A stretch of 64,000 bases of DNA from an uncultured Gammaproteobacteria bacterium. Its GTDB lineage: Bacteria; Patescibacteriota; Patescibacteriia; JAHIZJ01. The stretch is from NCBI GenBank assembly GCA_964371245.1, contig CAYJKP010000001.1:315042-379041 (forward strand). Reading direction: 5' to 3'. Each line of letters opens with the position of its first letter. Within the stretch, counting starts at the first letter, position 1. The notes beneath the pieces were generated by a model that was not told where the DNA came from, made no database searches, and was given only the letters and a program-made list of their open reading frames with translations. Shown in pieces: positions 5,042-46,519 of the stretch. The position numbers were made by a program, and so were the translations under genes.

Positions 5042-5461
5042 ATGAATTTAAACAAAGTCAGCCTCATCGGGAATTTGACTCGTGAACCGATGAGCCGAAC
5101 CCTGCCGTCAGGCCAGTCTGTCACGAATTTCGGCCTGGCTACCAACCACCTCTGGTGGGACGCGAAATCAAAAGAAAAAAAGGAAAGCGCTGAATTTCAC
5201 AATATTGTCGCCTGGGGCAAGCTCGGCGAGATCTGTGGGAAGTATCTGAAGAAGGGGAGCAAGGTCTATATCGAGGGCCGTCTCCAGACACGCGCCTGGA
5301 CCGATCGAGCCGGCGCCAAACGTTCCCGGACCGAGGTCATCGCTGAAAATCTGATCATGCTCGGCCACCTCGGCTCAAAAAAAGAAGAACAGGCTGAAGC
5401 CAAGAAACAAGAGCTCCTGGCAAAAGAAGAGGTTGATGTCCGGCAAGTCCCGGTTGAATAG
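5042..5461 (+). CDS. ssb: single-stranded DNA-binding protein
   Basis: OB-fold SSB signature MNLNKVSLIGNLTREP...HNIVAWGKLGE...VYIEGRLQTRAW. Confidence 0.9.
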   Translation: MNLNKVSLIGNLTREPMSRTLPSGQSVTNFGLATNHLWWDAKSKEKKESAEFHNIVAWGKLGEICGKYLKKGSKVYIEGRLQTRAWTDRAGAKRSRTEVIAENLIMLGHLGSKKEEQAEAKKQELLAKEEVDVRQVPVE

Positions 5462-5508
5462 GCAACAACGATAAACAACGCGTTCATTTCATCCAAACCG
5501 TTTGCTGC

Positions 5509-5588
5509 TTGCTCGCCTCGTCCTCAGACCCTAGTGGAAGCCAACCCGTCCTCTGGTTTTCACTGGCGGGAGAAGATCAGGCGAGCAA
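5509..5588 (+). other. candidate structured RNA element closed by a 10-bp inverted repeat (TTGCTCGCCT ... AGGCGAGCAA), in the ssb 3' region
   Basis: perfect 10-bp inverted repeat about 60 nt apart, followed at 5622-5647 by an intrinsic terminator. Confidence 0.3.
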
Positions 5589-5621
5589 CCAGGAGTCGGC
5601 TTGGCTATAGGTAATTATCAT

Positions 5622-5647
5622 CGACGGGTTAAAAGCCCGTTTTTTAA
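5622..5647 (+). terminator. rho-independent terminator (ACGGG-ttaaaag-CCCGT, T6)
   Basis: GC stem followed by TTTTTT. Confidence 0.55.
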
Positions 5648-5795
5648 TCACTTCTTTTCTGTCCGTCTTCCACTTAATTAATAAGACAAGTCTCCCTGCC
5701 GTCTTTTCCCCGAAATTTACCCCGGACCAGACGCTCGCGCGTCGGTACGGGGTCGATTACGAGGTTCTGGGAGGCGGGCAGGAAAAAGGTGAGCA

Positions 5796-5823
5796 TAAAT
5801 GAAAAGCTTACCCTAGGGTAAGC
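5796..5823 (-). terminator. terminator for minus-strand small gene (palindrome GCTTACCC-tag-GGTAAGC, T-rich on minus strand)
   Basis: perfect palindromic hairpin; minus strand reads hairpin then TTTTCATTT. Confidence 0.45.
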
Positions 5824-5856
5824 TCGAGACAGGACAGAGCGATTGAAAGGAGGGGA

Positions 5857-6114
5857 TCAGGCTGGCGGCGTGACGGCGGTGAATAGGTAGGAGGGGTACC
5901 AGCGTCCGTTCAAGCCAGCCAGTCTGACGATCTGGAAAGTCAGCGGCATGCAGCAGCAATCGTGTGACGAAGGGCAGCCTGGCCAGTGTTCGTCGTCCGT
6001 GTCGGTATCGACCTCGGTCACCCGGAATCGCGCATCAGGCGGAGCGCTTAAGAGATCTTGCACCTCGGCCTGGCTTTCATCAGCCAATCTGACTAGTTGT
6101 CCGACTTCCAGCAT
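5857..6114 (-). CDS. hypothetical small acidic protein (85 aa), high-GC
   Basis: GGAGG RBS 9 nt upstream of ATG at 6114 (complement); terminator hairpin downstream; inner start of ORF-track 5857..6159. Confidence 0.5.
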   Translation of the reverse strand: MLEVGQLVRLADESQAEVQDLLSAPPDARFRVTEVDTDTDDEHWPGCPSSHDCCCMPLTFQIVRLAGLNGRWYPSYLFTAVTPPA

Positions 6115-6261
6115 GTTTCCAAACCTCCGTGGGGTAAAGGCTAGGGAAAGGGCGAACAATTAGAAACCGTATGATACTATCATACACTTTATTAAACACT
6201 AGATAAAGCCCAATTATCCACAATATTTTTTGGCTTTTTTTAGCCAAACTTGGTAAATAAG

Positions 6262-6294
6262 AAAAAATCCGCCCAGGCTGTCGGGCCAAGGCGG
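6262..6294 (-). terminator. terminator of lipoprotein gene (CCGCC...GGCGG stem, T-run on minus strand)
   Basis: GC hairpin followed on the minus strand by ATTTTTTC. Confidence 0.5.
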
Positions 6295-6311
6295 TTGGTC
6301 GTTGTTCAGAC

Positions 6312-7676
6312 TCACGGAGCAATGATATGTGTGGCTCCGTCCCAGAAAGCCAGCTTCAGGTGGCCGTCTCCCCAGTACTGGAGGCAGTTATTGCCAGGCA
6401 GCCAGAGCGGCGATCCGGCGTAGGTATCCGGCAGGCGGCGGCGGTCCCACAGTCCGACGGTACCGAGGTAGAGCCCACGCTGGTCGCCAGACTCAGCAAA
6501 CGCGTATCTGGTCCGGTCGGGCGAGTAAGCGACAGAAGTCAGATTCGCCGTCGCTACCACTTTTCCGCCGGTTCCGGAGAGCGGATCCACCCAGTAAATG
6601 CCGTAGAAGTCGGCCCAGAGGACCGCGTCAGGCGCTACCCAGCAGAGCTGCAGCGACGCATTCTGCAGGGTGCTAATGCGCATGTAAACGGTGTGAACAC
6701 CGCTCCCGTCGACGCGCATGACGCGGATGATGGCCTGGGTTCCGTACGAATGGTTCACGAATGCGATCAGCGAATCGCCCGGCGAAAACGTCGGGTTGTG
6801 GTCGTAGACGAAGCCCTGCGTCTGGTAGATCCTCCGCACGACGTTCGAGGGCGCGTCATAGAGGTAGATTCCGTCGACATAGGCGCCAAAGGCAAGCCGG
6901 TCGCCGGAATTCGACCAGACATAGTCGTCGCTGGCGTGCGGATTCGGAATCTCCGTCCTGATGCTGCCGTCCCGGTTCGCGATCACGATGCTGTTGTTCG
7001 CTGACGTGTAGGCGACGTACTGGCCGTTGGGCGACACCCGGTACAAGCCCAGGTTGCTCAAGCCGGAAGCCAGCACGCTCCACTCGATTCCGTCGGCTCT
7101 GATGAGGAACAGCTTGTCGCCGCGGACCTGGGTGAGCATGATGTCCGGGCAGGGCTCGAACGTGGCCGAGACCGTGGTCGTGTCCTCGCCGGACAAGGCA
7201 ACAGTCTCAAAATGCGGATAGTAGCCGGGCCGGCGCAGATACACCTCGCACTTGTCGTCGAAGCCGAGGGGAACGTCGGGAATGATCGCCGGCGTCATGA
7301 CGGACAGGAGCGAGTCGTTCAGCGTGATGTACGCCTCGGGCGGGTTTGACAGCAAACGCAGGACGGCCGGCCGGTGTTCAGAGAAGCTGTGGTACACGGC
7401 GGGATTAACCGAGGCGCTGACCACGACCGTCTCGGCGTGCGCGTAGTAGCCGTGGATCGTGAAGGTGACGACATGGTCGCCATAGTCGACGCCGGTGAGC
7501 GCCGCGTCCGTCACCAGGCCGGTGTCAGTGCCGTCGAGCCAGATGGCCGCGCCTGGCGGAAAGGAGCGGCAGTCGATGGTACCGTGCTTCTCGGGTTCGG
7601 TTCCGTTCTGGCTGCAGCCGGCAAACGTGAGAACGAGCGCGGCGCAGATGGTAAGGATAGACAAGGTCGGTCGCAT
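6312..7676 (-). CDS. lipoprotein with PEGA-like domain and TolB-like (PD40/WD40-like) beta-propeller repeats; high-GC (about 65%)
   Basis: signal peptide with lipobox LTFAGC; PEGA-like segment; repeated ...YVAYTS...DGS...WSNSGDRLAF... propeller-like blocks; AAAGGAG RBS. Confidence 0.7.
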   Translation of the reverse strand: MRPTLSILTICAALVLTFAGCSQNGTEPEKHGTIDCRSFPPGAAIWLDGTDTGLVTDAALTGVDYGDHVVTFTIHGYYAHAETVVVSASVNPAVYHSFSEHRPAVLRLLSNPPEAYITLNDSLLSVMTPAIIPDVPLGFDDKCEVYLRRPGYYPHFETVALSGEDTTTVSATFEPCPDIMLTQVRGDKLFLIRADGIEWSVLASGLSNLGLYRVSPNGQYVAYTSANNSIVIANRDGSIRTEIPNPHASDDYVWSNSGDRLAFGAYVDGIYLYDAPSNVVRRIYQTQGFVYDHNPTFSPGDSLIAFVNHSYGTQAIIRVMRVDGSGVHTVYMRISTLQNASLQLCWVAPDAVLWADFYGIYWVDPLSGTGGKVVATANLTSVAYSPDRTRYAFAESGDQRGLYLGTVGLWDRRRLPDTYAGSPLWLPGNNCLQYWGDGHLKLAFWDGATHIIAP

Positions 7677-7910
7677 GATCGGACTCCTTTCATCACCCGC
7701 GACGCGGGGCTGAAGGTGGTAGGACTAGGTTTTCGAAACAGCGAAAGAGCACGTAAATGTACACCGGTAATAAAGGGGAGTCAAGCGCTTTAATGGATTT
7801 GTTTATATTGATGAATACTGAGTTTTGGGTGGACAAAATAGGGCTAATGAGAGTATAAATATAATATCGAGTTCGTATATACTCTAGTTAGCTGACATAT
7901 TTTTCACAAC

Positions 7911-8342
7911 ATGACTGATAAGATTCCTAGAGATAAATTTCCAATAATAACAGCGCTTACAGATGAATTATCATCTTTAAATAGTGGGTTAGAGCTAAAC
8001 ACAAAAGCTAATAGCATATGTCTTGGCCGTATACAAATGGATAAGTCAACAAACCAAAGCACGACAGCTTTAAGCTGCATCCAGACGTTGAGTATCATTA
8101 AAAATACATTTTACATCTACTTGGTTGAGCAACACGGCCAAAATAGTACCTTGGAAAAGTATTCATTTAAACTAACCGACGAGCATAAAGTACCCTTGAA
8201 GCAATATGATAAAGATCCAAAGTCTGGTTCACATGTTCATCTTTTTACAAACGGCAAGAAAGTAAATAAACATATACCATTTCCTGACTCGTTGAAAGAA
8301 ATCGCGAAAGACATTATCCATTTAATCGCACAAAGTAACTAG
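7911..8342 (+). CDS. hypothetical protein (low-GC island)
   Basis: ORF in an about 33% GC segment; no recognisable motif. Confidence 0.4.
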   Translation: MTDKIPRDKFPIITALTDELSSLNSGLELNTKANSICLGRIQMDKSTNQSTTALSCIQTLSIIKNTFYIYLVEQHGQNSTLEKYSFKLTDEHKVPLKQYDKDPKSGSHVHLFTNGKKVNKHIPFPDSLKEIAKDIIHLIAQSN

Positions 8343-8377
8343 TTGTGAAAAATACATCGCCTAACACGGGCTAGCCG

Positions 8378-8809
8378 GTGAGCGAGCCAATTACCACTGA
8401 AATGGGAAAGATAACAGTATATTATTCTCCAATAATTGACGAGGAAGAGAAGAAAATACTCTCTGATGCTTTTCGGCAAGATGTCGATTTTTGTAAATTT
8501 GAGAAAAAGGGTGTTCATGCTGGCGCATATGATGTTGAAATACTCATTAATATTTTCGGTGGCATTGTTGCGTCGGTTTTGTATGATTTAATTAAGAACC
8601 TCTTTAAAAGAAATAGAAAAAACATCATGGATGGTTATAAGAGACCACGTTACACTGTATTGGTTCTTAGAAAGGAAACTGAGTGGATTGTTATCTCGAA
8701 TGTCAACCCCGAAAATAAAATGACGATTTCCATTACATCAGCAAATTCAGTAGATCCCTCAAAAATCGACATCCAATACTCTGATGAAGAGCTATCAAAG
8801 CACCTTTAG
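8378..8809 (+). CDS. hypothetical protein (low-GC island)
   Basis: ORF, no recognisable motif. Confidence 0.4.
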   Translation: MSEPITTEMGKITVYYSPIIDEEEKKILSDAFRQDVDFCKFEKKGVHAGAYDVEILINIFGGIVASVLYDLIKNLFKRNRKNIMDGYKRPRYTVLVLRKETEWIVISNVNPENKMTISITSANSVDPSKIDIQYSDEELSKHL

Positions 8810-8941
8810 ACAAACTATTGACTCGCTCACCCAAATTGCTCGACCACTTTCGCGGTTCGCTCCGCGAGATTATACCGCTACGTTCACTCGCAACTTCGGC
8901 TAGCCCGAAACGTTGTCCGAAATTTTGTAAATTTTCTATCT

Positions 8942-9298
8942 ATGGAAAAAGGCCGTGAAAATATTATAGACATGCGAGAATGGAAAGCTCGTAAAGCGCG
9001 AGAACTTTTTGGCGATGTGGCGGCAGAGATACGGCGAGGAACATTACAAATACACTTGGTAGATGTATCCTCGCTATTTGCTAAGACTGATGAAATCCTT
9101 CATTATGCGCTTGAAGGGCAAGAGCTAGACCCTGATTCTCCTGACTATCAAACACGTTGTGCTGAAGCAAAAAGGGAAATCTTAGGAAACGCAGATGCTA
9201 TTACTGAAGCTTTACCACAATACCCAGATGTTGACTGCCCGGCTGTACGAGAAAGTCTTAACCTGCTTAAGGATTTCACTGAGCAGATCAGAGAATAG
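8942..9298 (+). CDS. hypothetical protein (low-GC island)
   Basis: ORF, no recognisable motif. Confidence 0.4.
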   Translation: MEKGRENIIDMREWKARKARELFGDVAAEIRRGTLQIHLVDVSSLFAKTDEILHYALEGQELDPDSPDYQTRCAEAKREILGNADAITEALPQYPDVDCPAVRESLNLLKDFTEQIRE

Positions 9299-9319
9299 AA
9301 AATTTACAAAACTCCATAC

Positions 9320-9392
9320 AACAGCGTCTATACGACATCAGCCTTCGCTAAAGCTTCAGCTGACAGTCGTATGAAACGCAAACGTTAAGTGA
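9320..9392 (+). repeat. intergenic element E1: AACAGCGTCTA - variable hairpin - ACGCAAACGTTAAG
   Basis: shares both conserved flanks with E2 at 10098-10158; internal hairpin TACGAC...GTCGTA. Confidence 0.5.
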
Positions 9393-9460
9393 CATTTTTG
9401 TGGGCTGGTGTAGATAGCCACTTGCCCGAGGGATCCGCTCCTCTTTTTCACTCAATATAT

Positions 9461-10099
9461 ATGGACAATAGCCAAAAAGCAGTTCACGTATACAACCAAA
9501 TAGCCGAGGACTATGCCAATGTGTTTTCAGAACCCTCTGAACATATCGACGAGTTTTTGGAACTATTACCGACCAATGGAAAGATTTTAGACGTTGGCTG
9601 CGGCAATGGCGTTGATTGTATGTACGTGAAGAACAAGGGTTTCAAAATCGTTGGTGTTGATATGTCAGAAAAGATGCTTGATATCGCAAGAAGCAAATAC
9701 CCTGAAATCGAATTTCGTCTAGGAGATATGCGAAGTCTTCAATTCGATCAAAATGAATTTGATGGCATTATTGCCTCTTGCTCACTTATTCACATTCCTA
9801 AAAAGGACATTCCAAAAACTCTAGGGCAGTTTACACGGTTTCTCAAACACGGTGGTGCAATCTACATCCAATTACAATCTGGAACATCCGAGGAGGTTTT
9901 TGTCGATGAGCCCTTTAAACCAGACGAAAAGCTGTTTGTTAATGTCATTTCACCTGACGAAATCGAACTGCTTTTACACAACGCTGGTTTTAAGATTGTA
10001 CATAAGCATGAAATACAATCACTGAAAAAAGAGGAGCTCGACTATACTCACTTAATCGTCATTGCTCGATATGCCAGCGCCCATAAAAACATCACTTAA
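9461..10099 (+). CDS. class I SAM-dependent methyltransferase
   Basis: motif I ILDVGCGNG and post-I acidic D in VGVDMSEKM; start taken at inner ATG 9461. Confidence 0.8.
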   Translation: MDNSQKAVHVYNQIAEDYANVFSEPSEHIDEFLELLPTNGKILDVGCGNGVDCMYVKNKGFKIVGVDMSEKMLDIARSKYPEIEFRLGDMRSLQFDQNEFDGIIASCSLIHIPKKDIPKTLGQFTRFLKHGGAIYIQLQSGTSEEVFVDEPFKPDEKLFVNVISPDEIELLLHNAGFKIVHKHEIQSLKKEELDYTHLIVIARYASAHKNIT

Positions 10100-10158
10100 C
10101 AGCGTCTATCTGCCATGCGCTACCGCGACACAGCAGATGATACGCAAACGTTAATGAA
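10098..10158 (+). repeat. intergenic element E2: AACAGCGTCTA - variable hairpin - ACGCAAACGTTAAT
   Basis: same flanks as E1; internal hairpin ATCTGC...GCAGAT has a different stem sequence. Confidence 0.5.
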
Positions 10159-10169
10159 ATGATAATCTT

Positions 10170-10946
10170 ATGGAAAAAGGAATAGACTACATCGGCGTCG
10201 GTTGTTGGGGAATAGTAACCAACGATCAAAATCAGATATTGCTGATCAAAAAGAAAATCAATGACTATTGGGAGCGACCCGGTGGAAATGTTGAGGTCGG
10301 CGAACGGCTCGAGGATTGCATTGTCCGGGAGGTAAAAGAAGAAACTGGCATTGAAGCCAGGGTGGCCGGCTTTGTCATGTTTGAACAGGTATTTTTCGGT
10401 CCGGACAAAAAGCATTGGCTGGCGTTTTGCTACCACCTCGAATATATTTCAGGCGAGATAAAAAATATGGAGCCTGAAAAACATGATGACATAAAGTGGT
10501 TTTCATTTTCAAGTTTGCCAAAAAACCTCAGTCCGCATACAGCTAAGGCCATAAATAAATACTTGAATAAATACACTGGCGTCATAATTGAAGAAAGCCT
10601 TGAGAATACTGACGTTTTGAAAGACGTTACGATACTCAAGACGAAAATCGAGCCAGTCACTGACAGACACAAAACGCCGTGGGTGGCTCAATGGAGTCTG
10701 CTCACTTTTGAAATTCCAAATGACCAGGCGGATATCGTTGCCGAGAAGCTGAGTAAATCACTCGACTCTCAACACAGCTGGTATGCTGACTTTAAAAATC
10801 AGGCGATCCATTATATTATTTTTCGAAATAGAATCTTCAAGATTGATCGAACGAGCAAAGAGCAATATAATGAAGCGAAGCAGTATGGATTATCGCTTGG
10901 CATACCAGATTATCAAGTTGACTTTCATCCAGAAGTTACGAAGTAG
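10170..10946 (+). CDS. NUDIX hydrolase fused to an uncharacterised about 130-aa C-terminal domain
   Basis: Nudix box GGNVEVGERLEDCIVREVKEETGIE; C-terminal half has no recognisable motif. Confidence 0.75.
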   Translation: MEKGIDYIGVGCWGIVTNDQNQILLIKKKINDYWERPGGNVEVGERLEDCIVREVKEETGIEARVAGFVMFEQVFFGPDKKHWLAFCYHLEYISGEIKNMEPEKHDDIKWFSFSSLPKNLSPHTAKAINKYLNKYTGVIIEESLENTDVLKDVTILKTKIEPVTDRHKTPWVAQWSLLTFEIPNDQADIVAEKLSKSLDSQHSWYADFKNQAIHYIIFRNRIFKIDRTSKEQYNEAKQYGLSLGIPDYQVDFHPEVTK

Positions 10947-10961
10947 GAAAGATAATATTAT

Positions 10962-14086: not shown

Positions 14087-14207
14087 CCTGTATTCACATT
14101 AATTAAAAATAAAACGGACAGCCCTTGTGCGGACGGATGTCCGTACGAGGCTGCCCGGCCGGCGTGGCTACCCTAGGCGGGTGTCAGCCGGCGGCCGTGG
14201 TGGAAGA

Positions 14208-14996
14208 TCAGGCCCGCGTCATGCCGTTGAAGTTCGGCTTGATGACGTGGTACCGTCCCTGCCAGGCCGCGTTGGTCGTGAGAGCGATCTGCGCCATGGT
14301 TCCGACGTACTGGCCGTTCGCGATGTTGGCCACGTCGGTGTTCTGCCCCGCCGTAACCGCGAAGTCGTCGCAGGTGTTGGCGGTGGTGCTCATCGGGATC
14401 GAGTTCTCGTCGTTCTTGTAGGTACGGGTCGTCGTCGTGTTCGCGTTCTGTTCGCGGGCATCGGCGGCGGTCTTCGTGTCGGTGATCAGGGCGGCGTCGG
14501 TCTGCGCGTTGGATCTGTTTTGCGCCTCCTGCCGTGTCGAAGTAGCGACCAGCGGGTTACCCGAGAAGCCGACCTCGAAGGAAGAAGGAACGGAAGCCAG
14601 GGTGCCGGCAAGGAAGGTCGCGTTGGCTCTGCCCTCGCTTCCTACCGTGACCGCGATGGTCTGCTTCGCGATCCAGCTCGATTCCTCAGCGGTGTTGTTG
14701 TTGATCGTCAGCTCGTTCTCGGCATAGGTCTTGCTCGTGGTAGCCGTGAACTGGTCCACCCTACCCGCGGCCTCGCAGGTAATACCGGTGGAAGTGCTGA
14801 TGATGGTCTCGCTGCTGACGGCGTCGGCGGTCGATGTGCCGGCGGTCAGCGCGTCCGGGGCGATGGTCACGACCTGCGCGTCATTGTCGAACACCTGCGG
14901 GCTGATGGCCGTATTGGTGTTGGCGCTGCAGAACGTGGCCGGGATCAGGAACACAACCGCGAACAGTGCGAGTATCCAGAACTGCGTTCTCCTCAT
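14208..14996 (-). CDS. secreted Thr/Ala/Asn-rich protein, high-GC
   Basis: GGAGGG RBS 7 nt upstream of ATG 14996 (complement); signal peptide MRRTQFWILALFAVVFLIPATFCSA; terminator on minus strand at about 14110-14150. Confidence 0.6.
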   Translation of the reverse strand: MRRTQFWILALFAVVFLIPATFCSANTNTAISPQVFDNDAQVVTIAPDALTAGTSTADAVSSETIISTSTGITCEAAGRVDQFTATTSKTYAENELTINNNTAEESSWIAKQTIAVTVGSEGRANATFLAGTLASVPSSFEVGFSGNPLVATSTRQEAQNRSNAQTDAALITDTKTAADAREQNANTTTTRTYKNDENSIPMSTTANTCDDFAVTAGQNTDVANIANGQYVGTMAQIALTTNAAWQGRYHVIKPNFNGMTRA

Positions 14997-15282
14997 GGGG
15001 AATCCCTCCAAGAGGTGACGGTCACTACAATCAGCGTGTTTAAGCACCGATGTCGTGTGTTACGCTTGGTCCTTTCGCGGGTCCTCCAATTCCCGAAAGG
15101 GTGTTGCCGTCGCAGAAACGACGGATTAGCGGGCATTGATACAAAACACTCTACTATAAGAATATCGACAAATTAAAGAGAAATCAAGTTTTTGTCAAGA
15201 CTTTTTTGATGCCGCCGGCATTTTACTTTCTTTTTCCGGCGTTTTTGATACAATGAAGGCAATAATACGTCATAATAATACT

Positions 15283-34648: not shown

Positions 34649-34678
34649 CGGGGCTTGATTGAAGAGCCCCGTTTTTTC
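34649..34678 (+). terminator. intrinsic terminator (CGGGGCT-tgattgaag-AGCCCCG, T6)
   Basis: 7-bp GC stem plus T6. Confidence 0.7.
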
Positions 34679-34723
34679 TTAGCTTTGTTTGCGGTAAAGG
34701 GCATCGCGTGATATACTGAAACC

Positions 34724-35440: not shown

Positions 35441-37258
35441 ATGAATATACGCAATGTCGCCATCATCGCGCACGTCGATCATGGCAAAACAACACTTGTC
35501 GACGCGCTCTTGCGCCAATCAAAAACCTGGCTGAATAAAGAAGTCGCCGGGACTGATTTGATTATGGATTCGAATGACCTGGAGCGTGAGCGCGGGATTA
35601 CGATTTTTTCAAAAAATGCTTCGGTTGTCTGGACCGGTGTAAAAATCAATATCATCGACACGCCTGGGCACGCTGATTTCGGCGGCGAGGTGGAGCGGGT
35701 GTTAAATATGGCTGACGGCTGTTTATTGCTTGTCGACGCGAAAGAGGGGCCGATGCCGCAGACGCGCTTTGTCTTGAAAAAAGCGTTAGCCATGGGCCTC
35801 CGAATTATTGTGGTCGTGAATAAGATTGACAAACCCGATGCCCGTCCAGCCGAAGTGCTTGATCGGACATTCGACTTATTCGTCGAGCTGGGCGCAGACG
35901 ACCGGACGCTTGATTTCCCCGTGCTCTATGCCTCGGCAAAAGAAGGCCGGGCGGGCCTAACGGCTGACCTAGCCAGCTTGACCGATATTACCCCGATTTT
36001 TGACGCCATTCTCAATGAAATACCCGCGCCATCCGGCGATCCGACAAAGCCCCTGCAGCTGCTGATCACCTCGATCAGCGCTGATGCGTACAAAGGCCGG
36101 ATAGCGACTGGTCGAATCGCCCAAGGCGTGATTCGGTCAGGCGATACGATTACCCATATCAGCCGGTCTGGGATTCAAAAAAAATACCGCCTTGTTTCGC
36201 TGATGACGTATACCGGTCTTGAGCGGGTTGATGTGACTGAGGCCTCGGCCGGCGATATCGTCGCGCTGGCTGGCATACCCGATGTGACGATTGGCGAAAC
36301 AATCGCGGATGCTGAAAAACCGATTGCCCTGCCATTACTCGATATTGAGCAACCGACCGTAAAGATTACCTTGCGCATAAATGACTCGCCGTTCGCCGGC
36401 CGGGAGGGCCAGTATTGCACCTCGCGCCAGATTAACGAGCGTCTGGAAAAGGAGCTGGAAACGGATTTAGCACTCCGGGTAGAAGACAGCCCCTCAGGCG
36501 GCTGGGCCGTGTCAGGCCGAGGCGAACTGCATCTCGCCATATTAATCGAGCGACTCCGGCGCGAAGGTTATGAGCTTCAGGTTTCCCGTCCGCATGTGAT
36601 TTTGAAGACGGTTGAGGGCGTTGTCCAGGCGCCGTTTGAGCGCGTTTTTGTTGAAGTGCCGGAAGCGCACAGCGGGGCCGTTATTCAAAAACTGGGCAGT
36701 CGGGGCGGCGAGATGCACGATTTCCAAACCCGCGAGGGCGTCAGTTATTTGGAATTTGTCATTCCCACCCGGGGCCTCTTTGGCTTCCGGAGCGAATTTC
36801 TGACGGATACGCGCGGCCTGGGAATTATGAATACCCTGTTTGAGGGCTATTTTCCTGATCCGGGCAACTGGCATGAACGCGAGCAGGGCTCGCTCGTCGC
36901 CCACGAAAGCGGCGTGTCGAATCTCTATGGACTGCTCAATGTTCAAAACCGTGGTACATTTTTCATCGGTCCGGGCGTCGAGGTGTATAAAGGCCAGGTT
37001 GTGGGGCAAAATTCGCGCGAGGATGATATTCACGTAAATGTTTGTAAAACAAAGCAGCTTTCAAATATGCGTTCGAAGGGCGACGGCAGCGCCGAACATT
37101 TTAATCGGCCGAAGGACATGGGTCTCGAGGACGCTTTGGAGTATATTAACGACGACGAATTAGTCGAGGTCACGCCGAAATCGATTCGGATTAGGAAAAA
37201 GGTGCTTGACCTGCAAATCGCGAAAAAACTCGCCCGCGAGGAGAAGGGTGCTGCTTGA
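35441..37258 (+). CDS. typA: translational GTPase TypA/BipA
   Basis: MNIRNVAIIAHVDHGKTTLVD G1 motif; DTPGHADF; NKID; EF-G-like domains; start at inner ATG 35441. Confidence 0.9.
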   Translation: MNIRNVAIIAHVDHGKTTLVDALLRQSKTWLNKEVAGTDLIMDSNDLERERGITIFSKNASVVWTGVKINIIDTPGHADFGGEVERVLNMADGCLLLVDAKEGPMPQTRFVLKKALAMGLRIIVVVNKIDKPDARPAEVLDRTFDLFVELGADDRTLDFPVLYASAKEGRAGLTADLASLTDITPIFDAILNEIPAPSGDPTKPLQLLITSISADAYKGRIATGRIAQGVIRSGDTITHISRSGIQKKYRLVSLMTYTGLERVDVTEASAGDIVALAGIPDVTIGETIADAEKPIALPLLDIEQPTVKITLRINDSPFAGREGQYCTSRQINERLEKELETDLALRVEDSPSGGWAVSGRGELHLAILIERLRREGYELQVSRPHVILKTVEGVVQAPFERVFVEVPEAHSGAVIQKLGSRGGEMHDFQTREGVSYLEFVIPTRGLFGFRSEFLTDTRGLGIMNTLFEGYFPDPGNWHEREQGSLVAHESGVSNLYGLLNVQNRGTFFIGPGVEVYKGQVVGQNSREDDIHVNVCKTKQLSNMRSKGDGSAEHFNRPKDMGLEDALEYINDDELVEVTPKSIRIRKKVLDLQIAKKLAREEKGAA

Positions 37259-37282
37259 CAAACACAGAAAATAGGGTATGAT
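37255..37282 (+). promoter_or_regulatory. strong promoter TTGACA-16-TATGAT overlapping the typA stop
   Basis: consensus -35 and near-consensus -10. Confidence 0.5.
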
Positions 37283-37493
37283 GCTCCATTGACTTTATTC
37301 TCGATACTTTTGTTATCTATAAGCCTTGGTTGATAGCTGAACTGTTGAATGTATCAATAGACAGCTGCCAAACAGGGTTGAAAAGAAAACAAACCTGTAA
37401 AGCGGTGACCGGCGAAGAACGTCGGTCGGCTCATTCCCAACGGATGCTCGAGGGCGAAGACCGTTCCGGCATCCGACAGACGGGAGGTTCATC

Positions 37494-38000
37494 GTGATGC
37501 GCGTGTTTCGGCATAGCCGAAATCAGGTAAGATGGCTCTACGGAGTCGCGCTATTCTTCTCACTGGTGGGTGGGGGAGCGGCGATAATCTCAATCGAGAG
37601 CGGACGACCATCGTTCGCCGCCTGGCTGTGGCTCATCGCACCAGTCGTCCCACTTCTCATCGTCAATGGTGTCATGGAGATCCACCTGCGACAGAAGCTC
37701 GCCCATATGATCTATTCAAAACCTCGACGAGCTATCTTCGGGTCCAGGTCAGTCACGACCTATCACTACGATCGCGCGGTGGAGATGATGCTCACCCAGC
37801 TGGCAGAACGCCTTGGCGCAGCGATCCGAGTCGAAGAAGCAATGCGAGAAGGCGAATACTGTCCGGCAACAATGGGCGTCATAAGGGCTCACGTTAGGTT
37901 GGCAAAGAGTGCTTTCTGGCGTGCGTATTGGCTGGCTAGTATCTTTGACAAACCAGTCAAGTCGAGCTGGAAGGACTATCTGACGGCGCAGGTTGCCTAA
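37494..38000 (+). CDS. hypothetical membrane protein, about 58% GC
   Basis: GGGAGG RBS 9 nt upstream; 2-3 TM helices. Confidence 0.5.
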   Translation: MMRVFRHSRNQVRWLYGVALFFSLVGGGAAIISIESGRPSFAAWLWLIAPVVPLLIVNGVMEIHLRQKLAHMIYSKPRRAIFGSRSVTTYHYDRAVEMMLTQLAERLGAAIRVEEAMREGEYCPATMGVIRAHVRLAKSAFWRAYWLASIFDKPVKSSWKDYLTAQVA

Positions 38001-38181
38001 GTTGCGGACTTGCCGTCGGCTCGGGTCGAGTCTCGTCACAAGCGACTTTACCCGGGCATTTTTTATACCCAATAGTATTGATATAATAAAAGGTGGATGG
38101 GAAATATGTCAGCCGATTCAAAAACGGATGTCTCGGGACGACTTTTTTGACAAAGAGCCGCGCCACCGGTAGGCTGAAGAA

Positions 38182-43124: not shown

Positions 43125-43577
43125 TAGGCTTATTGGATTAAGCCTGGAGGCTCAAAGGGTGGACTGCGCGACGAACCGCAATCCACGGGGGTTCTTTGTG
43201 ACCACCATCCTTTGATTCTCTCCAGCCGGAAGGGCGGGAACGCGTCCTGGCCTTTCAGTTGGAGAGAATGCGTTATGTTGTGGAAAGAACAGCACTGTAT
43301 GATATCATCATACTATTATATTTGTCAAATTTATGGCCACACTCTTGACAAAAATATCTGGCGGTGATACCATCGCCCTAACCATCCTTTAACCGGGATG
43401 TGTTGATGCGAAGGCATAGATCAACGGTCCATCATTAGGACGCTTTAGACCGTTGGGAGCCTAGTAGCGTAACCACCCATCAACAAACTGGTTAACTACT
43501 TTGCCCGTCCGTTTATCGGACGATCTGATGCCTCCTATGGGGCTCTTTTTGTTGTGAGTCAACAAGGGAGGTGCACC
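43125..43577 (+). other. long, highly structured noncoding leader / candidate ncRNA (multiple nested inverted repeats) upstream of REC-like gene
   Basis: GGCTTA-ttggat-TAAGCC; ATTCTCTCC...GGAGAGAAT (9 bp); CAACGGTC...GACCGTTG (8 bp); CGTCCG-tttat-CGGACG; promoter-like TTGACA-17-TACCAT at about 43345. Confidence 0.35.
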
Positions 43578-44312
43578 ATGCAATGGGTTCTGCTTTTTGA
43601 CACGAACGTCGAGCGGCTCAACCTGTTTCTGTCCGCGCTCCTTGGGTATCAGGTGATCGGCGTGTCGGAATTCAGCGCCGCCAAGCGGCTCATTCTCGAA
43701 CGCCAGCCCGCGATCGTTCTGGCGGATTGGTTCGACTCAAACACGAACCGTCTGCTGAACGAGCTCGAGCAGATCCGCGACCGGCCCATCCCGCCGTTTT
43801 ACTTCATGGCCGACGTGCCGAACCAGGCGAAGGTCCGCGAATGCCGGCGTCGGGCGCTCAGCCAGGGAGCCTTCGGTTTCATCCCGCGGCCGATCGGCCA
43901 GGCTCAGTTCCTGCTCTATGTCAACGGGGCATTGGCTCGGGCCAGAGGCTATCAGGTCGCGGAGGTGACAACCATAGTGTTGCCAGCCACGTTCGGTACG
44001 AAGGACGACCCGCTGCTTATAGCCTTGAACGGCTCGCCCTATTCGAACATCGCCCACTTGGCCGGCGGCTGGGAAGTCCTTGACTCTATTCTGGAGCGTC
44101 ATGGCATCCGGGCATCGGAAGAGGACATGAGCGAACTGCGTGAGGCGATCGTCGGCTGGGGCAGCCTACGGGAAGAGGACCGACTGCTCCGGGCGATCGA
44201 CTTGCACGACGGCCTGCTCTTCGACTGTCGCACTCCCGTTGACCAGGTGATCTATGACATTGCCCATGAGATCCTGTATGGCGCTGGCGTGAAAGGAAGC
44301 AAGGCTGCCTGA
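43578..44312 (+). CDS. receiver (CheY-like) domain protein with uncharacterised C-terminal domain, about 60% GC
   Basis: GGGAGG RBS 7 nt upstream; N-terminal block with Asp in VLADWF resembles a REC fold. Confidence 0.5.
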   Translation: MQWVLLFDTNVERLNLFLSALLGYQVIGVSEFSAAKRLILERQPAIVLADWFDSNTNRLLNELEQIRDRPIPPFYFMADVPNQAKVRECRRRALSQGAFGFIPRPIGQAQFLLYVNGALARARGYQVAEVTTIVLPATFGTKDDPLLIALNGSPYSNIAHLAGGWEVLDSILERHGIRASEEDMSELREAIVGWGSLREEDRLLRAIDLHDGLLFDCRTPVDQVIYDIAHEILYGAGVKGSKAA

Positions 44313-44435: not shown

Positions 44436-44467
44436 TAAAAAAATGAGGGTACGATAGTGGTACCCTC
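44436..44467 (-). terminator. intrinsic terminator for minus-strand gene (GAGGGTAC-gatagtg-GTACCCTC with A7/T7)
   Basis: 8-bp stem preceded by A7 on the + strand. Confidence 0.6.
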
Positions 44468-44490
44468 AGCCGTCGCGTTGGTAACGGCGG

Positions 44491-44997
44491 CTATGCGTCA
44501 GTCGGAGGCTTGGCGCCCAGGTATTTCCTGATGTAGAACTTCTTCATCGTCTCTGATCCCATGAAGAGAACCAGGACCACGAAGCACTGTTCGGCCAGGT
44601 GCTTCGGAATCTTTACGTTCTCAAATAGCATGGAACCTAGCGAGATCAAGAAGAACATACTCCACCAGGCGATAACCCAGCGGCCGCCGCGGCGAGTGAT
44701 GTGTTTCGTATGCGACCAGCGCATGACCTCCTTATTGGAGACATACATGGCCAGAAACGCACAGTACATCGTCACGGTGACGAACGGAACCTGCCAGTGG
44801 GCGGCGTGCAGCACCTGCAGCCACGGGAGGAGTCGGACCGCTTCCATCACGTTCATGAGGAACATCAAGCACGTGAAGAAAGAGAATCCCTGGCAGAGCA
44901 GTTGGGCGTTGATGTTAGCCCGAGACACCTCATCAACAGTCGGCTTGGCCAACCGGATTTCTCCCCTCAAAGCCGTGTGCGTCCTCATGGCGGACAC
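44491..44997 (-). CDS. hypothetical 4-TM membrane protein
   Basis: hydrophobic ORF with its own terminator. Confidence 0.5.
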   Translation of the reverse strand: MSAMRTHTALRGEIRLAKPTVDEVSRANINAQLLCQGFSFFTCLMFLMNVMEAVRLLPWLQVLHAAHWQVPFVTVTMYCAFLAMYVSNKEVMRWSHTKHITRRGGRWVIAWWSMFFLISLGSMLFENVKIPKHLAEQCFVVLVLFMGSETMKKFYIRKYLGAKPPTDA

Positions 44998-45248
44998 TCC
45001 TTTCTGATGCAGACCCAGATGTTGATTTATGGAATGCGCAACCCCTCGAAATCCTGAGCCGATGAGTTTAGTTCAAAACAGGGCTTTTGTCAATGCCAGG
45101 ATGTGCACCAGTTATGCACCGAATTTTGCTAAGGTTTAACAAAAAACATGATTATGATATAAATCTTGGTAAGTCGTCAAAGGGCCTTTATTTTTCAGGC
45201 GCTATCTGATATGCTAGGGTGGACTTTAAAAAAACACGTTTCTTCAGT

Positions 45249-45322
45249 CGGGGTGTAGCGCAGTTGGCTAGCGCGCGTCGTTCGGGTCGACGAGGCCGAG
45301 GGTTCGAGTCCCTCCACCCCGA
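45249..45322 (+). tRNA. tRNA-Pro (anticodon CGG), CCA not encoded
   Basis: acceptor CGGGGTG/CACCCCG, D-arm GCGC-AGTTGGCTA-GCGC, anticodon stem CGTCG/CGACG with loop TTCGGGT, T-arm GAGGG-TTCGAGT-CCCTC. Confidence 0.8.
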
Positions 45323-45368
45323 CTGAGGAAAGGTGGAAAGTGATTGACACATAAACACTTATTTTCGC

Positions 45369-45791
45369 ATGAGCCAAATTTCCTTCTACGAAACTAAGTA
45401 TTATATGTTTTCAAATTTTTCAGCGCACGCGGTCGAGTACCGCGGCGATTTGTTTATGACGGCGGAACACGCCTACCAAGCGGCGAAATTCGACGACTTC
45501 GCTATAAAATCCGAAATACAAGCGGCCCGGAGCGCCTACGCGGCAAAAGAAATCGCCCGTCAGCATAGAAGTAAGCGTATCTCAAACTGGGATCAAAAAA
45601 AGGTTCAGATTATGGAAGAAATTATTCGGGCTAAATACCGTCAGCATGGCGACGTGCAGAAAGCATTAAAAGAATCGGGTAATGAAGAAATAATTGAAAA
45701 TTCTCCAATCGACTCATTCTGGGGCGCGGGCGCCGATGGTAATGGCAGAAACGAGCTAGGTAAAATATGGATGAAGCTGCGTCTAGAATAG
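45369..45791 (+). CDS. NADAR-domain protein (YbiA-like)
   Basis: FSNFSAH...TAEHAYQAAKF...SFWGAG...LGKIWMKLR blocks. Confidence 0.7.
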   Translation: MSQISFYETKYYMFSNFSAHAVEYRGDLFMTAEHAYQAAKFDDFAIKSEIQAARSAYAAKEIARQHRSKRISNWDQKKVQIMEEIIRAKYRQHGDVQKALKESGNEEIIENSPIDSFWGAGADGNGRNELGKIWMKLRLE

Positions 45792-45959
45792 TTGATGGGC
45801 TATAGCGATCTAACTGACCAGCTGAAATAAATTATTTCGAGTATCACCAAATGAGGCGTCTTATGTTTCGCCTCATTGACATTTTTATATGACTCGAATA
45901 AGATGCAGCTGTTGTGAAACGGCCTTCTGGCCTAGGGCAAAACCACAGGGAGGATACCT

Positions 45960-46334
45960 ATGCCACACCACGCCATCCCAGACGCGCCTGCCGGAACACT
46001 GACCCCCGTCGTCTTCAAGACCGAAGTCGTCGGAACAGTGGCCCGGCATTTCCCTCCGCGCCGGGACGTCTTGTCGGCCATCGTGGCCAAGGGGATGCAG
46101 ATCAGTCTGCGCGATACGTTGTGCAGTTTCATCCCCACGCATCCCAACGAGCCGATCTGTCGTACGGTCCTCGTTACGTCGCTTCAGATCGACGGCGTAC
46201 AGGTCGAGCGTGCGACGGAAGGTCAGGAGGTCGGAATCCTGACCGGAGGGCCGTTGTGGGTCGTCGGAAGCCCGGTGCTTCGACTCACTCGCCAGAGGAC
46301 AGAGCCGGGAAACGCACCGGGCTGCGCCGTCTGA
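45960..46334 (+). CDS. stand-alone EF-Tu domain-2-like beta-barrel protein, about 65% GC, hypothetical
   Basis: GGGAGG RBS 8 nt upstream; ...LQIDGVQVERATEGQEVGILTGG resembles EF-Tu domain II; followed by a terminator; overlapping antisense ORFs judged spurious. Confidence 0.4.
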   Translation: MPHHAIPDAPAGTLTPVVFKTEVVGTVARHFPPRRDVLSAIVAKGMQISLRDTLCSFIPTHPNEPICRTVLVTSLQIDGVQVERATEGQEVGILTGGPLWVVGSPVLRLTRQRTEPGNAPGCAV

Positions 46335-46383
46335 CGGTCGACCGCACGCTGCCGCGCTCATTCTTTGCTCGCCCCCTTCGTTC

Positions 46384-46405
46384 ACCCCACCCGTGTGGGG
46401 TTTTT
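46384..46405 (+). terminator. intrinsic terminator (CCCCAC-ccgt-GTGGGG, T5)
   Basis: 6-bp GC stem plus TTTTT. Confidence 0.65.
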
Positions 46406-46519
46406 CATTAACCCGGATAATGAAATTAGGGTCGTGTTTATATAAACATTGTCAGATATTATTTATTCTGCCATGATACTGATAGAGTCATTAATTGATT
46501 AAACCATAATATTATTAAT

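What the first reader, a model, noticed from the sequence alone, without database searches (positions are those of the whole stretch)
5460..46410. Mosaic composition: single-gene 58-68% GC islets with strong GGAGG ribosome-binding sites and private terminators embedded in a 45-52% GC backbone
The high-GC units are 5857-7676, 14208-14996, 17589-18008, 34180-34617, 37494-38000, 43578-44312 and 45960-46334. Each is preceded by a textbook GGAGG/GGGAGG Shine-Dalgarno at 5-9 nt spacing. Several end in GC-stem plus T-run terminators. Most encode secreted, membrane or unknown proteins. Backbone genes such as the ribosomal proteins, murF and truB largely lack strong Shine-Dalgarno sequences. The very low-GC islands at 7.8-12.4 kb, 29.8-30.5 kb, 50.6-51.3 kb and 53.9-54.6 kb add to the picture. 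The cause could be repeated horizontal acquisition of moron-like cassettes from a high-GC donor or a chimeric metagenomic assembly.
Basis: seen in the sequence. Interest (0 to 1): 0.55.

Follow-up and report, generated by a model that had tools for sequence, protein, structure and literature searches.

The report
SD-led high-GC gene cassettes in Patescibacteria
A real stretch of a tiny-genome Patescibacteria (CPR) bacterium carries two kinds of genes: ordinary ones with no Shine-Dalgarno ribosome-binding site, and nine GC-rich accessory genes that each bring their own promoter, strong ribosome-binding site and usually a terminator; these are most likely old horizontal acquisitions, not an assembly error.

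Summary
Nine genes in eight units have GC 0.55-0.70 and GC3 0.62-0.86, against a backbone GC3 of about 0.59. Every one has GGAGG or AGGAG 5-9 nt before its start codon. Only 1 of 66 other genes does, which is the chance rate. All seven genes with GC3 >= 0.72 have an SD, against 3 of 68 others (Fisher p = 6e-8).

Chimeric assembly is refuted. About twenty independently assembled contigs, 99.7-100% identical with different SNPs, are collinear across every border.

The organism is a Patescibacterium with a genome of roughly 1-1.2 Mb. A sister species from landfill leachate carries eight of the nine high-GC genes at the same sites with the same composition. All four low-GC islands are missing or replaced there. 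The high-GC islets therefore predate the species split and the low-GC islands are younger.

Four islet genes are under purifying selection (dN/dS 0.06-0.18). No donor, phage link, integron feature or shared flanking repeat was found.

Old horizontal acquisition from SD-using, higher-GC donors is the best reading (about 0.55). Low synonymous divergence and weak decay of GC keep a "maintained native gene class" alive (about 0.25).

The parts
5804..7789 (-). Islet I1/I1b. Contains a TTGACT(7784)-17-TACATT promoter and a 5'UTR of about 70 nt with the hairpin CCCGC-GTC-GCGGG. AGGAG lies at 7688-7684. I1 (7676-6312) is a 454-aa lipoprotein with PEGA domains and a beta-propeller; its terminator is at 6286-6271. 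I1b (6114-5857) is an 85-aa acidic, Cys-rich protein with its own GGAGGT; its terminator is at 5825-5804.
   Evidence: GC 0.63, GC3 0.82. Pfam PEGA E=7e-12. DNA homology to the copy in another Patescibacteria MAG (L010, different neighbours) runs 7789-6254, that is from the -35 box to the terminator, with a 27-nt identical 5'UTR/SD block. The sister orthologue is 92% identical, dN/dS 0.18.
14107..15198 (-). Islet I2. TTGACA lies at 15198-15193 (the -10 box is uncertain) and GGAGG at 15009-15005. The CDS (14996-14208) encodes a 262-aa secreted Thr/Ala/Asn-rich protein with a signal peptide. A strong terminator follows at about 14157-14107.
   Evidence: GC 0.63, GC3 0.86. Terminator -26.9 kcal/mol. 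Promoter read. Sister orthologue 79% identical, dS 0.14, dN/dS 0.66.
17518..18028 (+). Islet I3. TTGACA-16-GATATT promoter at 17518-17545, a UTR hairpin at 17529-17556 and GGAGG at 17579-17583. The CDS (17589-18008) encodes a 139-aa membrane protein with 3-4 TM segments. The terminator is at 17998-18018.
   Evidence: GC 0.61, GC3 0.78. Promoter and terminator. TM segments. Sister orthologue 86% identical, dS 0.14 while its neighbours have 0.46-0.63.
34083..34683 (+). Islet I4. TTGACA-16-TAGGAT promoter at 34083-34110, a UTR hairpin and GGAGGAGG at 34164-34171. The CDS (34180-34617) encodes a 145-aa acidic protein carrying a 45-bp (15-aa) tandem repeat. The terminator is at 34647-34673.
   Evidence: GC 0.70, GC3 0.86. 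Promoter, UTR, SD and terminator are identical in the sister species (apart from one spacer and one hairpin-loop substitution). The repeat has 3 copies here and 2 in other strains and the sister.
37252..38143 (+). Islet I5. This is an 890-bp indel between bipA and truB. It holds a TTGACA-16-TATGAT promoter at 37255-37282, GGAGG at 37483-37487 and a CDS (37497-38000) for a 167-aa protein with 2 TM segments. A terminator-like hairpin lies at about 38019-38065. The segment is bounded by a TTGACAAA direct repeat.
   Evidence: Absent from the sister species, where bipA and truB are 43 bp apart. GC 0.55, GC3 0.62, so only the SD marks it.
43345..44312 (+). Islet I6. TTGACA-17-TACCAT promoter at 43345-43373, a UTR of about 200 nt and GGGAGGTG at 43566-43573. 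The CDS (43578-44312) encodes a 244-aa orphan receiver-domain (CheY-like) protein with a helical C-terminal domain. It has no terminator of its own and is convergent with I7.
   Evidence: GC 0.61, GC3 0.77. AlphaFold model pLDDT 71; receiver domains match with TM about 0.75-0.78 and rmsd about 2.9 A. Sister orthologue 96% identical, dN/dS 0.06. An 80% homologue in L181 keeps the same SD.
44436..45093 (-). TTGACA-17-TAAACT promoter at 45093-45065 and AGGAG at 45001-44997. The CDS (44988-44491) encodes a 165-aa membrane protein. The terminator is at 44468-44444.
   Evidence: GC 0.55, GC3 0.78. Terminator. Sister orthologue 95% identical, dN/dS 0.09.
45876..46411 (+). Islet I8. TTGACA-17-TAAGAT promoter at 45876-45904 and GGGAGGA at 45948-45954. 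The CDS (45960-46334) encodes a 124-aa protein of unknown function. The terminator is at 46384-46401.
   Evidence: GC 0.64, GC3 0.74. Present in the sister species with an AAGGAGGA SD and GC 0.63.
45249..45323 (+). tRNA-Pro(CGG), lying between I7 and I8. In a third relative (L181) a 4.6-kb block of mostly SD-led genes with GC 0.51-0.64 abuts this tRNA in place of I7.
7904..10961 (+). Low-GC island 1. It holds five SD-less genes with GC 0.35-0.42: three of unknown function, a methyltransferase and a NUDIX protein.
   Evidence: Absent from the sister species, which has a different low-GC gene at this site (Peptidase_C39, GC 0.34).
29545..30576 (+). Low-GC island 2. It holds tRNA-Trp (29637-29711), a remnant resembling a tRNA 3' end (29745-29776) and a 200-aa gene at 29834-30436 with GC 0.30.
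   Evidence: The whole segment is replaced in the sister species by a different tRNA-Trp allele plus proS.
50610..51728 (+). Low-GC island 3. It holds a 219-aa gene (GC 0.28-0.30) and a GIY-YIG nuclease gene at 51401-51703.
   Evidence: Absent from the sister species, where the ABC permease gene is directly followed by the NUDIX gene.
53819..54737 (+). Low-GC island 4. It holds a 248-aa membrane protein gene at 53878-54624 with GC 0.30.
   Evidence: Not alignable to the sister species.

Best explanation
The window is genuine, contiguous DNA of a Patescibacteria (CPR) bacterium; the longest contigs carrying these genes are 0.92-1.18 Mb.

Its native genes start translation without a Shine-Dalgarno site. 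Many have a -10 box a few bases before the ATG, which suggests leaderless or very short leaders. Others, such as bipA, have a leader but no SD.

Embedded in intergenic gaps are eight self-contained expression units carrying nine genes. Each has a sigma-70-type promoter with a near-perfect TTGACA, a structured 5'UTR of 37-207 nt, a strong GGAGG-type SD at 5-9 nt, and an ORF with the codon usage of a high-GC organism. Seven of the eight units end in an intrinsic terminator.

The most likely history is that these were acquired horizontally, one gene at a time, from higher-GC bacteria that use SD, and kept their imported expression signals (inferred). Shown here:
- Eight of the nine genes were in place before the split from a sister species.
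- At least four are kept by purifying selection.
- Five of the nine products are envelope proteins: one lipoprotein, one secreted protein and three membrane proteins.

The low-GC, SD-less islands are a separate and younger layer of gene gain or replacement at hot spots, one of them next to tRNA-Trp.
For: Not an artefact: searches show many independent contigs, 99.7-100% identical with differing SNPs, collinear across all borders.

Host identity: the named homologues are Patescibacteria MAGs. BipA is 65-71% identical to Magasanikiibacteriota, Staskawiczbacteria and Falkowbacteria MAGs.

One cause explains three independent shifts:
- SD presence tracks GC3. All 7 genes with GC3 >= 0.72 have an SD against 3 of 68 others (Fisher p = 6e-8; Mann-Whitney p = 2e-5). 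The backbone sits at the chance rate.
- Codon choice differs in the way expected for a high-GC genome: AAA 0.60 to 0.16, AAT 0.58 to 0.18, ATC 0.45 to 0.82.
- Codon choice also moves against GC pressure: AGA+AGG 0.06 to 0.22 and GGA 0.11 to 0.24.

The amino-acid make-up is also shifted towards GC-rich codons: GARP 0.30 and FYMINK 0.20, against 0.25 and 0.28 in the backbone. The zero-order tetranucleotide signature correlates with the backbone at r = 0.54, against 0.93 +/- 0.01 for backbone controls.

Mobility: I5 is an 890-bp indel. The I1 homologue (65% aa) sits in a different neighbourhood in another MAG. L181 has a block of SD-led genes at tRNA-Pro.

More distant PEGA relatives occur mostly in contigs of 0.60-0.75 GC, where they match the contig's own composition.

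Functionality: dN/dS is 0.06-0.18 for I1, I1b, I6 and I7. The SD is conserved across 72% nucleotide identity.

Internal GGAGG and AGGAG are two-fold depleted in backbone coding sequence (z about -3.6). This hints that the ribosome still has an anti-SD.
Against: No donor was found. The word-index search returned only 4-5 close relatives each for I1, I4 and I6 among 5.8e9 proteins; every hit that a source names is from a Patescibacteria MAG, and every context examined looks Patescibacteria-like.

I1 relatives at 37-65% identity are again SD-led islets with raised GC in their own genomes. This includes a 0.50-GC copy in a backbone of about 0.33 GC. That looks like a constant offset rather than a fixed donor composition.

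Synonymous divergence from the sister species is lower in the islets (median 0.19) than in the backbone (0.45). I2 and I3 have 0.14 while their direct neighbours have 0.46-0.79. Polarised synonymous changes show only a mild GC-to-AT excess (44:26), less than the 2.9:1 expected under the backbone's regime. Both results argue against free decay of a foreign composition towards the host's.

Full-length I1 family members come from organisms of all GC types, judged by amino-acid composition. The Markov-normalised tetranucleotide signature does not separate islets from backbone.
Confidence: 0.55

Rival explanations
1. The islets are a native gene class whose composition is actively maintained. They are long-resident Patescibacteria genes that are leadered and SD-dependent. 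Their high GC3 is held up by a gene-specific force. Candidates are selection on mRNA stability or structure, selection on synonymous sites, or GC-biased gene conversion at frequently recombining surface-protein genes. On this view there are two translation-initiation regimes in one genome.
For: Low dS with sharp, gene-limited boundaries. Weak net GC-to-AT flux, implying an equilibrium GC3 of about 0.70, above the backbone's 0.59. Homologues at 37-65% identity keep both the SD and a raised GC in four of the five other genomes examined, and every examined context is Patescibacteria-like. The promoter, UTR hairpin, SD and terminator are conserved. Eight of nine genes are shared with the sister species at the same sites. 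Five of the nine products are envelope proteins, which are typical recombination and diversifying-selection targets.
Against: No known mechanism links SD use with GC3 along the whole gene. Highly expressed backbone genes (ribosomal proteins, HU, IF-1) have ordinary GC3 of 0.55-0.63, so translational selection does not point towards GC. The rise in AGA/AGG and GGA is not what a pure GC-raising force predicts. GC-biased gene conversion does not explain the SD sites. The constant-offset pattern rests on one distant homologue (L098), and L097 is a counter-example. The SD-GC3 link is noisy in other Patescibacteria loci.
Confidence: 0.25
2. The islets are remnants of mobile elements: phage morons, decayed prophage or integrative-element genes, or integron-type cassettes left in the chromosome.
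For: The moron-like architecture of own promoter, SD and terminator. I7 and I8 flank tRNA-Pro, and L181 has a 4.6-kb block of small SD-led genes abutting the same tRNA. In L098 the GC-raised SD-led genes lie near an integrase and a LexA-like repressor.
Against: No phage homologues were found: tblastn against 50,697 phage records gave nothing, PHROGs gave nothing, and IMG/VR gave nothing. The neighbours are housekeeping genes. There is no integrase in the window, no attC-like or other shared flanking repeat, and no paralogy among the islets. Integron cassettes lack promoters, whereas these have them.
Confidence: 0.1
3. The window is a chimeric metagenomic assembly that joins fragments of a high-GC organism into a mid-GC contig.
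For: Only the abrupt GC steps themselves.
Against: The same junctions appear in about 20 contigs from different samples and two assembly pipelines, with different SNPs. A sister species about 10% diverged at the nucleotide level has the same layout. Each islet fits exactly between functional promoter and terminator signals.
Confidence: 0.01

Closest known systems
Horizontally acquired 'atypical' genes or genomic islets, and their gradual drift towards host composition (Lawrence & Ochman framework; own knowledge)
   Same: Sharp compositional and codon-usage departures confined to accessory genes of mostly unknown function. There are indels between close relatives. A second, low-GC layer sits next to a tRNA.
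   Different: The islets are single-gene units, not large islands. There are no integrases or flanking repeats. The high-GC set is conserved between sister species and shows lower, not higher, synonymous divergence. The foreign signal includes the mode of translation initiation itself.
Phage morons: autonomous promoter-gene-terminator units inserted between prophage genes (own knowledge)
   Same: Each unit carries its own promoter and SD, seven of the eight also carry a terminator, and all differ in GC from their surroundings.
   Different: There is no prophage. The neighbours are murF, ssb, ribosomal-protein, bipA and truB genes. No phage homologues were found.
SD-poor bacteria with a few SD-led genes, such as Bacteroidetes where the anti-SD is sequestered (Jha et al. 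2021, seen only as a reference-list entry; otherwise own knowledge). Also Parcubacteria whose 16S rRNA lacks the anti-SD motif (Tsurumaki et al. 2022, PMC9297842).
   Same: SD use by native genes is at chance level across the genome, in a CPR lineage for which loss of the anti-SD has been reported. A small minority of genes is SD-led.
   Different: Here the SD-led minority is compositionally distinct and accessory, not a regulatory housekeeping gene such as rpsU. Whether this organism's 16S rRNA keeps CCUCC could not be checked.
Leaderless-rich bacteria such as Actinobacteria and Deinococcus (Zheng et al. 2011, PMC3160421; GeneMarkS-2, PMC6028130; titles and abstracts seen)
   Same: -10-like hexamers end 3-18 nt before many backbone start codons.
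   Different: In those groups leadered and operon-internal genes normally carry an SD. Here they do not, for example bipA and the ribosomal-protein operon.

Membership tests
Horizontally acquired atypical genes / genomic islets | Base composition and codon usage deviate from the host genome | tested here: met
   GC3 is 0.62-0.86 against 0.587 +/- 0.057. The zero-order tetranucleotide correlation is 0.54, against 0.93 for controls.
Horizontally acquired atypical genes / genomic islets | Patchy distribution among close relatives, or a different genomic context | tested here: inconclusive
   I5 is an indel. The I1 homologue has other neighbours in L010. However, eight of nine genes are syntenic in the sister species.
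Horizontally acquired atypical genes / genomic islets | An identifiable donor lineage, with closest relatives outside the host clade | tested here: not met
   Close homologues whose source is named or whose context was examined are from Patescibacteria MAGs or Patescibacteria-like contigs. Only distant PEGA-domain relatives lie in high-GC contigs. Full-length family members span all GC types.
Horizontally acquired atypical genes / genomic islets | Composition decaying towards the host's (excess GC-to-AT changes, normal or high dS) | tested here: inconclusive
   GC-to-AT 44 against AT-to-GC 26, which lies between equilibrium and full decay. dS is lower than in the backbone.
Phage morons | Own promoter and terminator around a single gene | tested here: met
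   Seven of the eight units have a terminator and all eight have a TTGACA-type -35 box.
Phage morons | Located inside a prophage, between phage genes | tested here: not met
   The neighbours are housekeeping genes. PHROGs, phage tblastn and IMG/VR searches were all negative.
Integron gene cassettes | attC recombination site, a nearby intI integrase, and promoterless cassettes | tested here: not met
   The flanks share no repeat or motif. No integrase is in the window. Each unit has its own promoter.
Assembly chimera | Junctions not reproduced in independent assemblies | tested here: not met
   All junctions are reproduced and are also present in the sister species. Read-level support could not be examined.
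Recombination hot spots under GC-biased gene conversion | Raised GC3 with reduced divergence between lineages, and AT-to-GC-biased substitutions | tested here: inconclusive
   GC3 is raised and dS reduced. Substitutions are not AT-to-GC biased. The model does not explain the SD sites or the rise in AGA/AGG.
SD-independent (anti-SD-less) Parcubacteria | The 16S rRNA 3' end lacks CCUCC | not testable with these tools
   No rRNA gene is in the window, and the rest of the genome could not be fetched. Indirectly, native SD use is at chance level, yet internal GGAGG is depleted.

The most novel reading that the evidence does not exclude
This Patescibacteria lineage runs two translation-initiation regimes in one cell. 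The default regime needs no SD and serves the core genome. A small SD-dependent regulon of envelope and signalling genes has high GC3, structured leaders and strong terminators that are actively maintained rather than being foreign relics. The low dS and the persistence of these features in distant homologues point this way. SD-anti-SD pairing, or ribosome heterogeneity, would then act as a switch for this gene set.
Probability: 0.2. Interest if true: 0.7.

Novelty: new variant of a known kind. Interest (0 to 1): 0.45.

Why it matters
CPR bacteria are uncultured, and how they start translation is largely unknown. Part of the Parcubacteria is reported to lack the anti-SD motif. Here native genes use SD at the chance rate, while a handful of conserved accessory genes under purifying selection carry textbook SD sites. 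This gives a natural test of whether such ribosomes still read SD, and of how imported genes get expressed in an SD-free host.

It also has a practical side. Gene callers trained on the backbone will mis-set starts; the bipA start is miscalled here. Composition-based binning or chimera filters could wrongly discard such contigs.

Tried and rejected
- Chimeric assembly: rejected.
- Phage or moron origin: tblastn of all nine islet proteins joined end to end against phage genomes, PHROGs and IMG/VR scans were all negative.
- Shared flanking repeats, attC-like or IS ends: none.
- Paralogy among the islets: none.
- High expression or translational selection as the cause of high GC3: rejected, because ribosomal-protein, HU and IF-1 genes have GC3 of 0.55-0.63.
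- GC-richness alone producing GGAGG by chance: rejected; the rate is 1.8% inside the islets.
- 'Cassette boundaries' from the I1/L010 alignment as proof of mobility: downgraded. At 72% identity only functional elements remain alignable.
- I4 as a hyper-divergent gene (56% by BLASTP): explained by repeat copy number and local patches; the DNA column identity is 92%.
- Markov-normalised tetranucleotide signature: uninformative at 5 kb.
- Generality of the SD-GC3 link in 23 other Patescibacteria loci: noisy, with no clear answer.
- Donor taxonomy from amino-acid composition of 148 HMMER hits: mixed.
- 16S anti-SD: unreachable with the tools.
- Leaderless inference: only suggestive. 27 of 46 -10-like hexamers end 0-18 nt before the start codon.

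Full report
**1. The observation**

The window has 49.7% GC, but 300-bp windows range from 24% to 71%. Their genes have GC3 of 0.62-0.86, against a backbone mean of 0.587 (sd 0.057). The four low-GC islands have GC 0.29-0.42 and GC3 0.20-0.46.

Using the gene calls attached to public copies of the same DNA, I found nine islet genes in eight units:
- I1b 5857-6114 (-)
- I1 6312-7676 (-)
- I2 14208-14996 (-)
- I3 17589-18008 (+)
- I4 34180-34617 (+)
- I5 37497-38000 (+)
- I6 43578-44312 (+)
- I8 45960-46334 (+)

All nine have GGAGG or AGGAG ending 5-9 nt before the start codon. Among 75 scored genes, 10 have such a core. All 7 genes with GC3 >= 0.72 have it, against 3 of 68 others (Fisher p = 6e-8; Mann-Whitney on GC3 p = 2e-5). 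The three others are I1b, I5 and a small SHOCT gene that is itself absent from the sister species. Random ATG/GTG positions have the core at 1.8% inside islet DNA and 2.0% across the window. GC-richness therefore does not create the signal, and the backbone (1 of 66) sits at chance.

Terminator-like hairpins with T-runs follow eight of the nine genes. A TTGACA or TTGACT -35 box lies 37-207 nt upstream of every unit. The leaders contain GC-rich hairpins.

**2. Not an artefact**

The exact islet proteins occur on 11-23 contigs each. These include a 918-kb contig at 48x coverage and contigs above 1 Mb, from many samples and two independent assembly sources. Twenty-two fetched copies align to the window collinearly at 99.7-100% identity with differing SNPs. 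They cover 1-17.7 kb and 24.2-56.3 kb and cross every islet and island border. Chimeric assembly is rejected.

**3. The organism**

Named homologues come from 'Patescibacteria group bacterium' MAGs. BipA is 65-71% identical to Magasanikiibacteriota, Staskawiczbacteria and Falkowbacteria MAGs. The longest contigs carrying these genes are 0.92-1.18 Mb, which suggests a genome of about that size.

A sister species is known from a Southern Ontario landfill leachate well (IMG 3300029288; contigs L016, L099 and L182). It is about 90% identical at the DNA level and 88-100% at the protein level for backbone genes.

**4. Comparative anatomy**

In the sister species I1, I1b, I2, I3, I4, I6, I7 and I8 sit at the same sites with the same GC and the same SD. 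I5 is missing there. It is an 890-bp indel between bipA and truB, bounded by a TTGACAAA direct repeat.

By contrast, all four low-GC islands are absent or replaced in the sister species:
- 7904-10961 is replaced by a different low-GC gene.
- 29545-30576 is replaced by another tRNA-Trp allele plus proS.
- 50610-51728 is absent.
- 53819-54737 is absent.

Two further segments are also window-only: 12190-13939 (which has backbone-like GC) and 16178-16666. The high-GC layer therefore predates the species split, and the low-GC layer is younger.

**5. Are the islets functional?**

For four islet genes, dN/dS against the sister species shows purifying selection: I1 0.18, I1b 0.08, I6 0.06 and I7 0.09. 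Three evolve fast: I2 0.66, I3 0.54 and I4 1.3. The I4 value partly reflects a 45-bp repeat with 3 copies here and 2 elsewhere.

The products are:
- I1: a PEGA + beta-propeller lipoprotein
- I2: a secreted Thr/Ala-rich protein
- I3, I5, I7: membrane proteins
- I6: an orphan receiver-domain protein (model pLDDT 71)
- I1b, I4, I8: unknown

**6. Origin: evidence for horizontal acquisition**

A single cause, a higher-GC donor that uses SD, would explain the joint shift in SD use, GC3, codon choice and amino-acid composition. The codon shift includes moves against GC pressure: AGA+AGG 0.06 to 0.22 and GGA 0.11 to 0.24. The zero-order tetranucleotide signature is far outside backbone controls (r = 0.54 against 0.93 +/- 0.01).

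The I1 homologue in another Patescibacteria MAG (65% aa identity) lies in a different neighbourhood, after dprA and topA. It keeps the promoter, a 27-nt identical UTR/SD block and the terminator. In a third relative, a block of small SD-led genes with GC 0.51-0.64 abuts tRNA-Pro where the window has I7. Distant PEGA relatives found in JGI metagenomes lie mostly in contigs of 0.60-0.75 GC and match the contig's own composition.

**7. Origin: evidence that does not fit simple HGT**

No donor was found. The word-index search gave only 4-5 close relatives each for I1, I4 and I6, and every one with a named source or an examined context is Patescibacterial. An exhaustive HMMER search shows I1 belongs to a large family of PEGA-propeller lipoproteins whose members have amino-acid compositions of all GC types.

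I1 relatives at 37-65% identity are again SD-led islets with raised GC in their own contigs. One is a 0.50-GC copy in a backbone of about 0.33 GC.

Synonymous divergence from the sister species is lower in the islets (median 0.19, range 0.13-0.33) than in the backbone (median 0.45). The boundaries are sharp: I2 and I3 have 0.14 while their direct neighbours have 0.46-0.79. Polarised synonymous changes in I1 and I6 show 44 GC-to-AT against 26 AT-to-GC. That lies between equilibrium and the 2.9:1 expected if the backbone's regime applied.

These points keep alive a rival in which the high GC and the SD are maintained features of a resident gene class.

**8. The host's translation regime**

Ribosomal-protein, murF, truB and ABC-transporter genes lack an SD. 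-10-like hexamers end 0-18 nt before the start codon in 27 of 46 occurrences, which suggests many leaderless or short-leader mRNAs.

The bipA start is miscalled. The real ATG at 35442 follows a 47-nt leader that has a hairpin with a T-run and no SD.

Tsurumaki et al. 2022 report that the anti-SD motif is undetected in about half of Parcubacteria 16S genes. I could not reach this genome's 16S rRNA. Indirectly, GGAGG and AGGAG are two-fold depleted inside backbone coding sequence relative to synonymous shuffles (z = -3.6 and -3.7). CCTCC is also depleted (z = -2.7), so this is only suggestive.

**9. Other rivals**

- Phage or moron origin: no hits in phage genomes, PHROGs or IMG/VR, and no prophage context.
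- Integron or IS origin: no shared flanking repeats and no integrase.
- Paralogous family: none.
- Translational selection: highly expressed genes have ordinary GC3.

**10. Verdict**

In this genome, SD use and high GC3 coincide almost perfectly and are confined to self-contained accessory units.

The most likely explanation is old horizontal acquisition of single-gene expression cassettes from SD-using, higher-GC donors, retained under selection (confidence about 0.55). A maintained native SD-dependent gene class is a serious rival (about 0.25). Mobile-element remnants (about 0.1) and assembly chimera (about 0.01) are minor.

This is a new variant of a known kind, namely atypical acquired genes. 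Its main value is as a natural test case for SD-independent translation in CPR bacteria.

Noticed in passing
window 15283-16080: A heliorhodopsin gene (Pfam PF18761) lies in this Patescibacteria genome between islets I2 and I3. It is conserved in the sister species (90% aa identity).
   Followed up: no
window 29545-30576; L016 4504-6440: The whole tRNA-Trp segment differs between the window and the sister species. The tRNA-Trp alleles are different, and both carry a downstream remnant resembling a tRNA 3' end (GGGGCGATTCCCTCCGCTCCTGCCA, window 29745-29776). The sister species has proS (486 aa) where the window has a 200-aa gene of 30% GC. Where proS lies in the window's genome is unknown.
   Followed up: partly
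window 34404-34547: A 45-bp tandem repeat (15 aa, DEADPGKKTGDDAVV) inside I4 has three copies here and two in other strains (L013) and in the sister species (L016).
   Followed up: partly
window 35361-35442: The bipA start is miscalled at 35390 in public gene calls. A TTGACA-16-TATACT promoter ends at 35388. A terminator-like hairpin (35402-35417) with a T8 run lies in the 47-nt leader before the likely true ATG at 35442, which may be an attenuator. There is no SD.
   Followed up: partly
whole window, backbone genes: Backbone codon usage is split. GC-ending codons dominate the four-fold boxes (GCC+GCG 0.74, CCG 0.56, CGC+CGG 0.66). AT-ending codons dominate the AT-rich two-fold boxes (AAA 0.60, TTT 0.62, AAT 0.58).
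   Followed up: no
whole window, backbone CDS (41.7 kb): Internal GGAGG (18 observed, 36.7 expected) and AGGAG (14 observed, 32.4 expected) are depleted relative to synonymous-codon shuffles. CCTCC is also depleted (16 observed, 28.6 expected). GAGGT is enriched.
   Followed up: partly
window 12190-13939: A SHOCT gene with an AGGAG SD and a 487-aa Asn-rich repeat protein (faint TSP3 hits) are present in the window but absent from the sister species.
   Followed up: partly
window 50610-51728: This window-specific insertion carries a 30%-GC gene of unknown function plus a GIY-YIG nuclease gene (51401-51703). It may be a small mobile or homing element.
   Followed up: partly
window 7690-7715 and L010 9975-10000: A 27-nt block of the I1 5'UTR (CCCGCGTCGCGGGTGATGAAAGGAGTC, a hairpin plus the SD) is identical between two genomes whose coding sequences are only 72% identical. 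This suggests a conserved regulatory leader.
   Followed up: partly
L181 1059-5619: In a third relative the I6 homologue is followed by a 637-aa gene and a run of small, mostly SD-led genes with GC 0.51-0.64. Two of them encode tiny hydrophobic peptides. The run ends at tRNA-Pro. There are no PHROG or Pfam hits. It may be an integrated element of unknown type.
   Followed up: partly
window vs L099/L016, all orthologue pairs: Synonymous divergence between the two sister genomes varies about ten-fold among backbone genes (0.08-0.87). It is lowest in HU, IF-1 and the ribosomal-protein genes.
   Followed up: no
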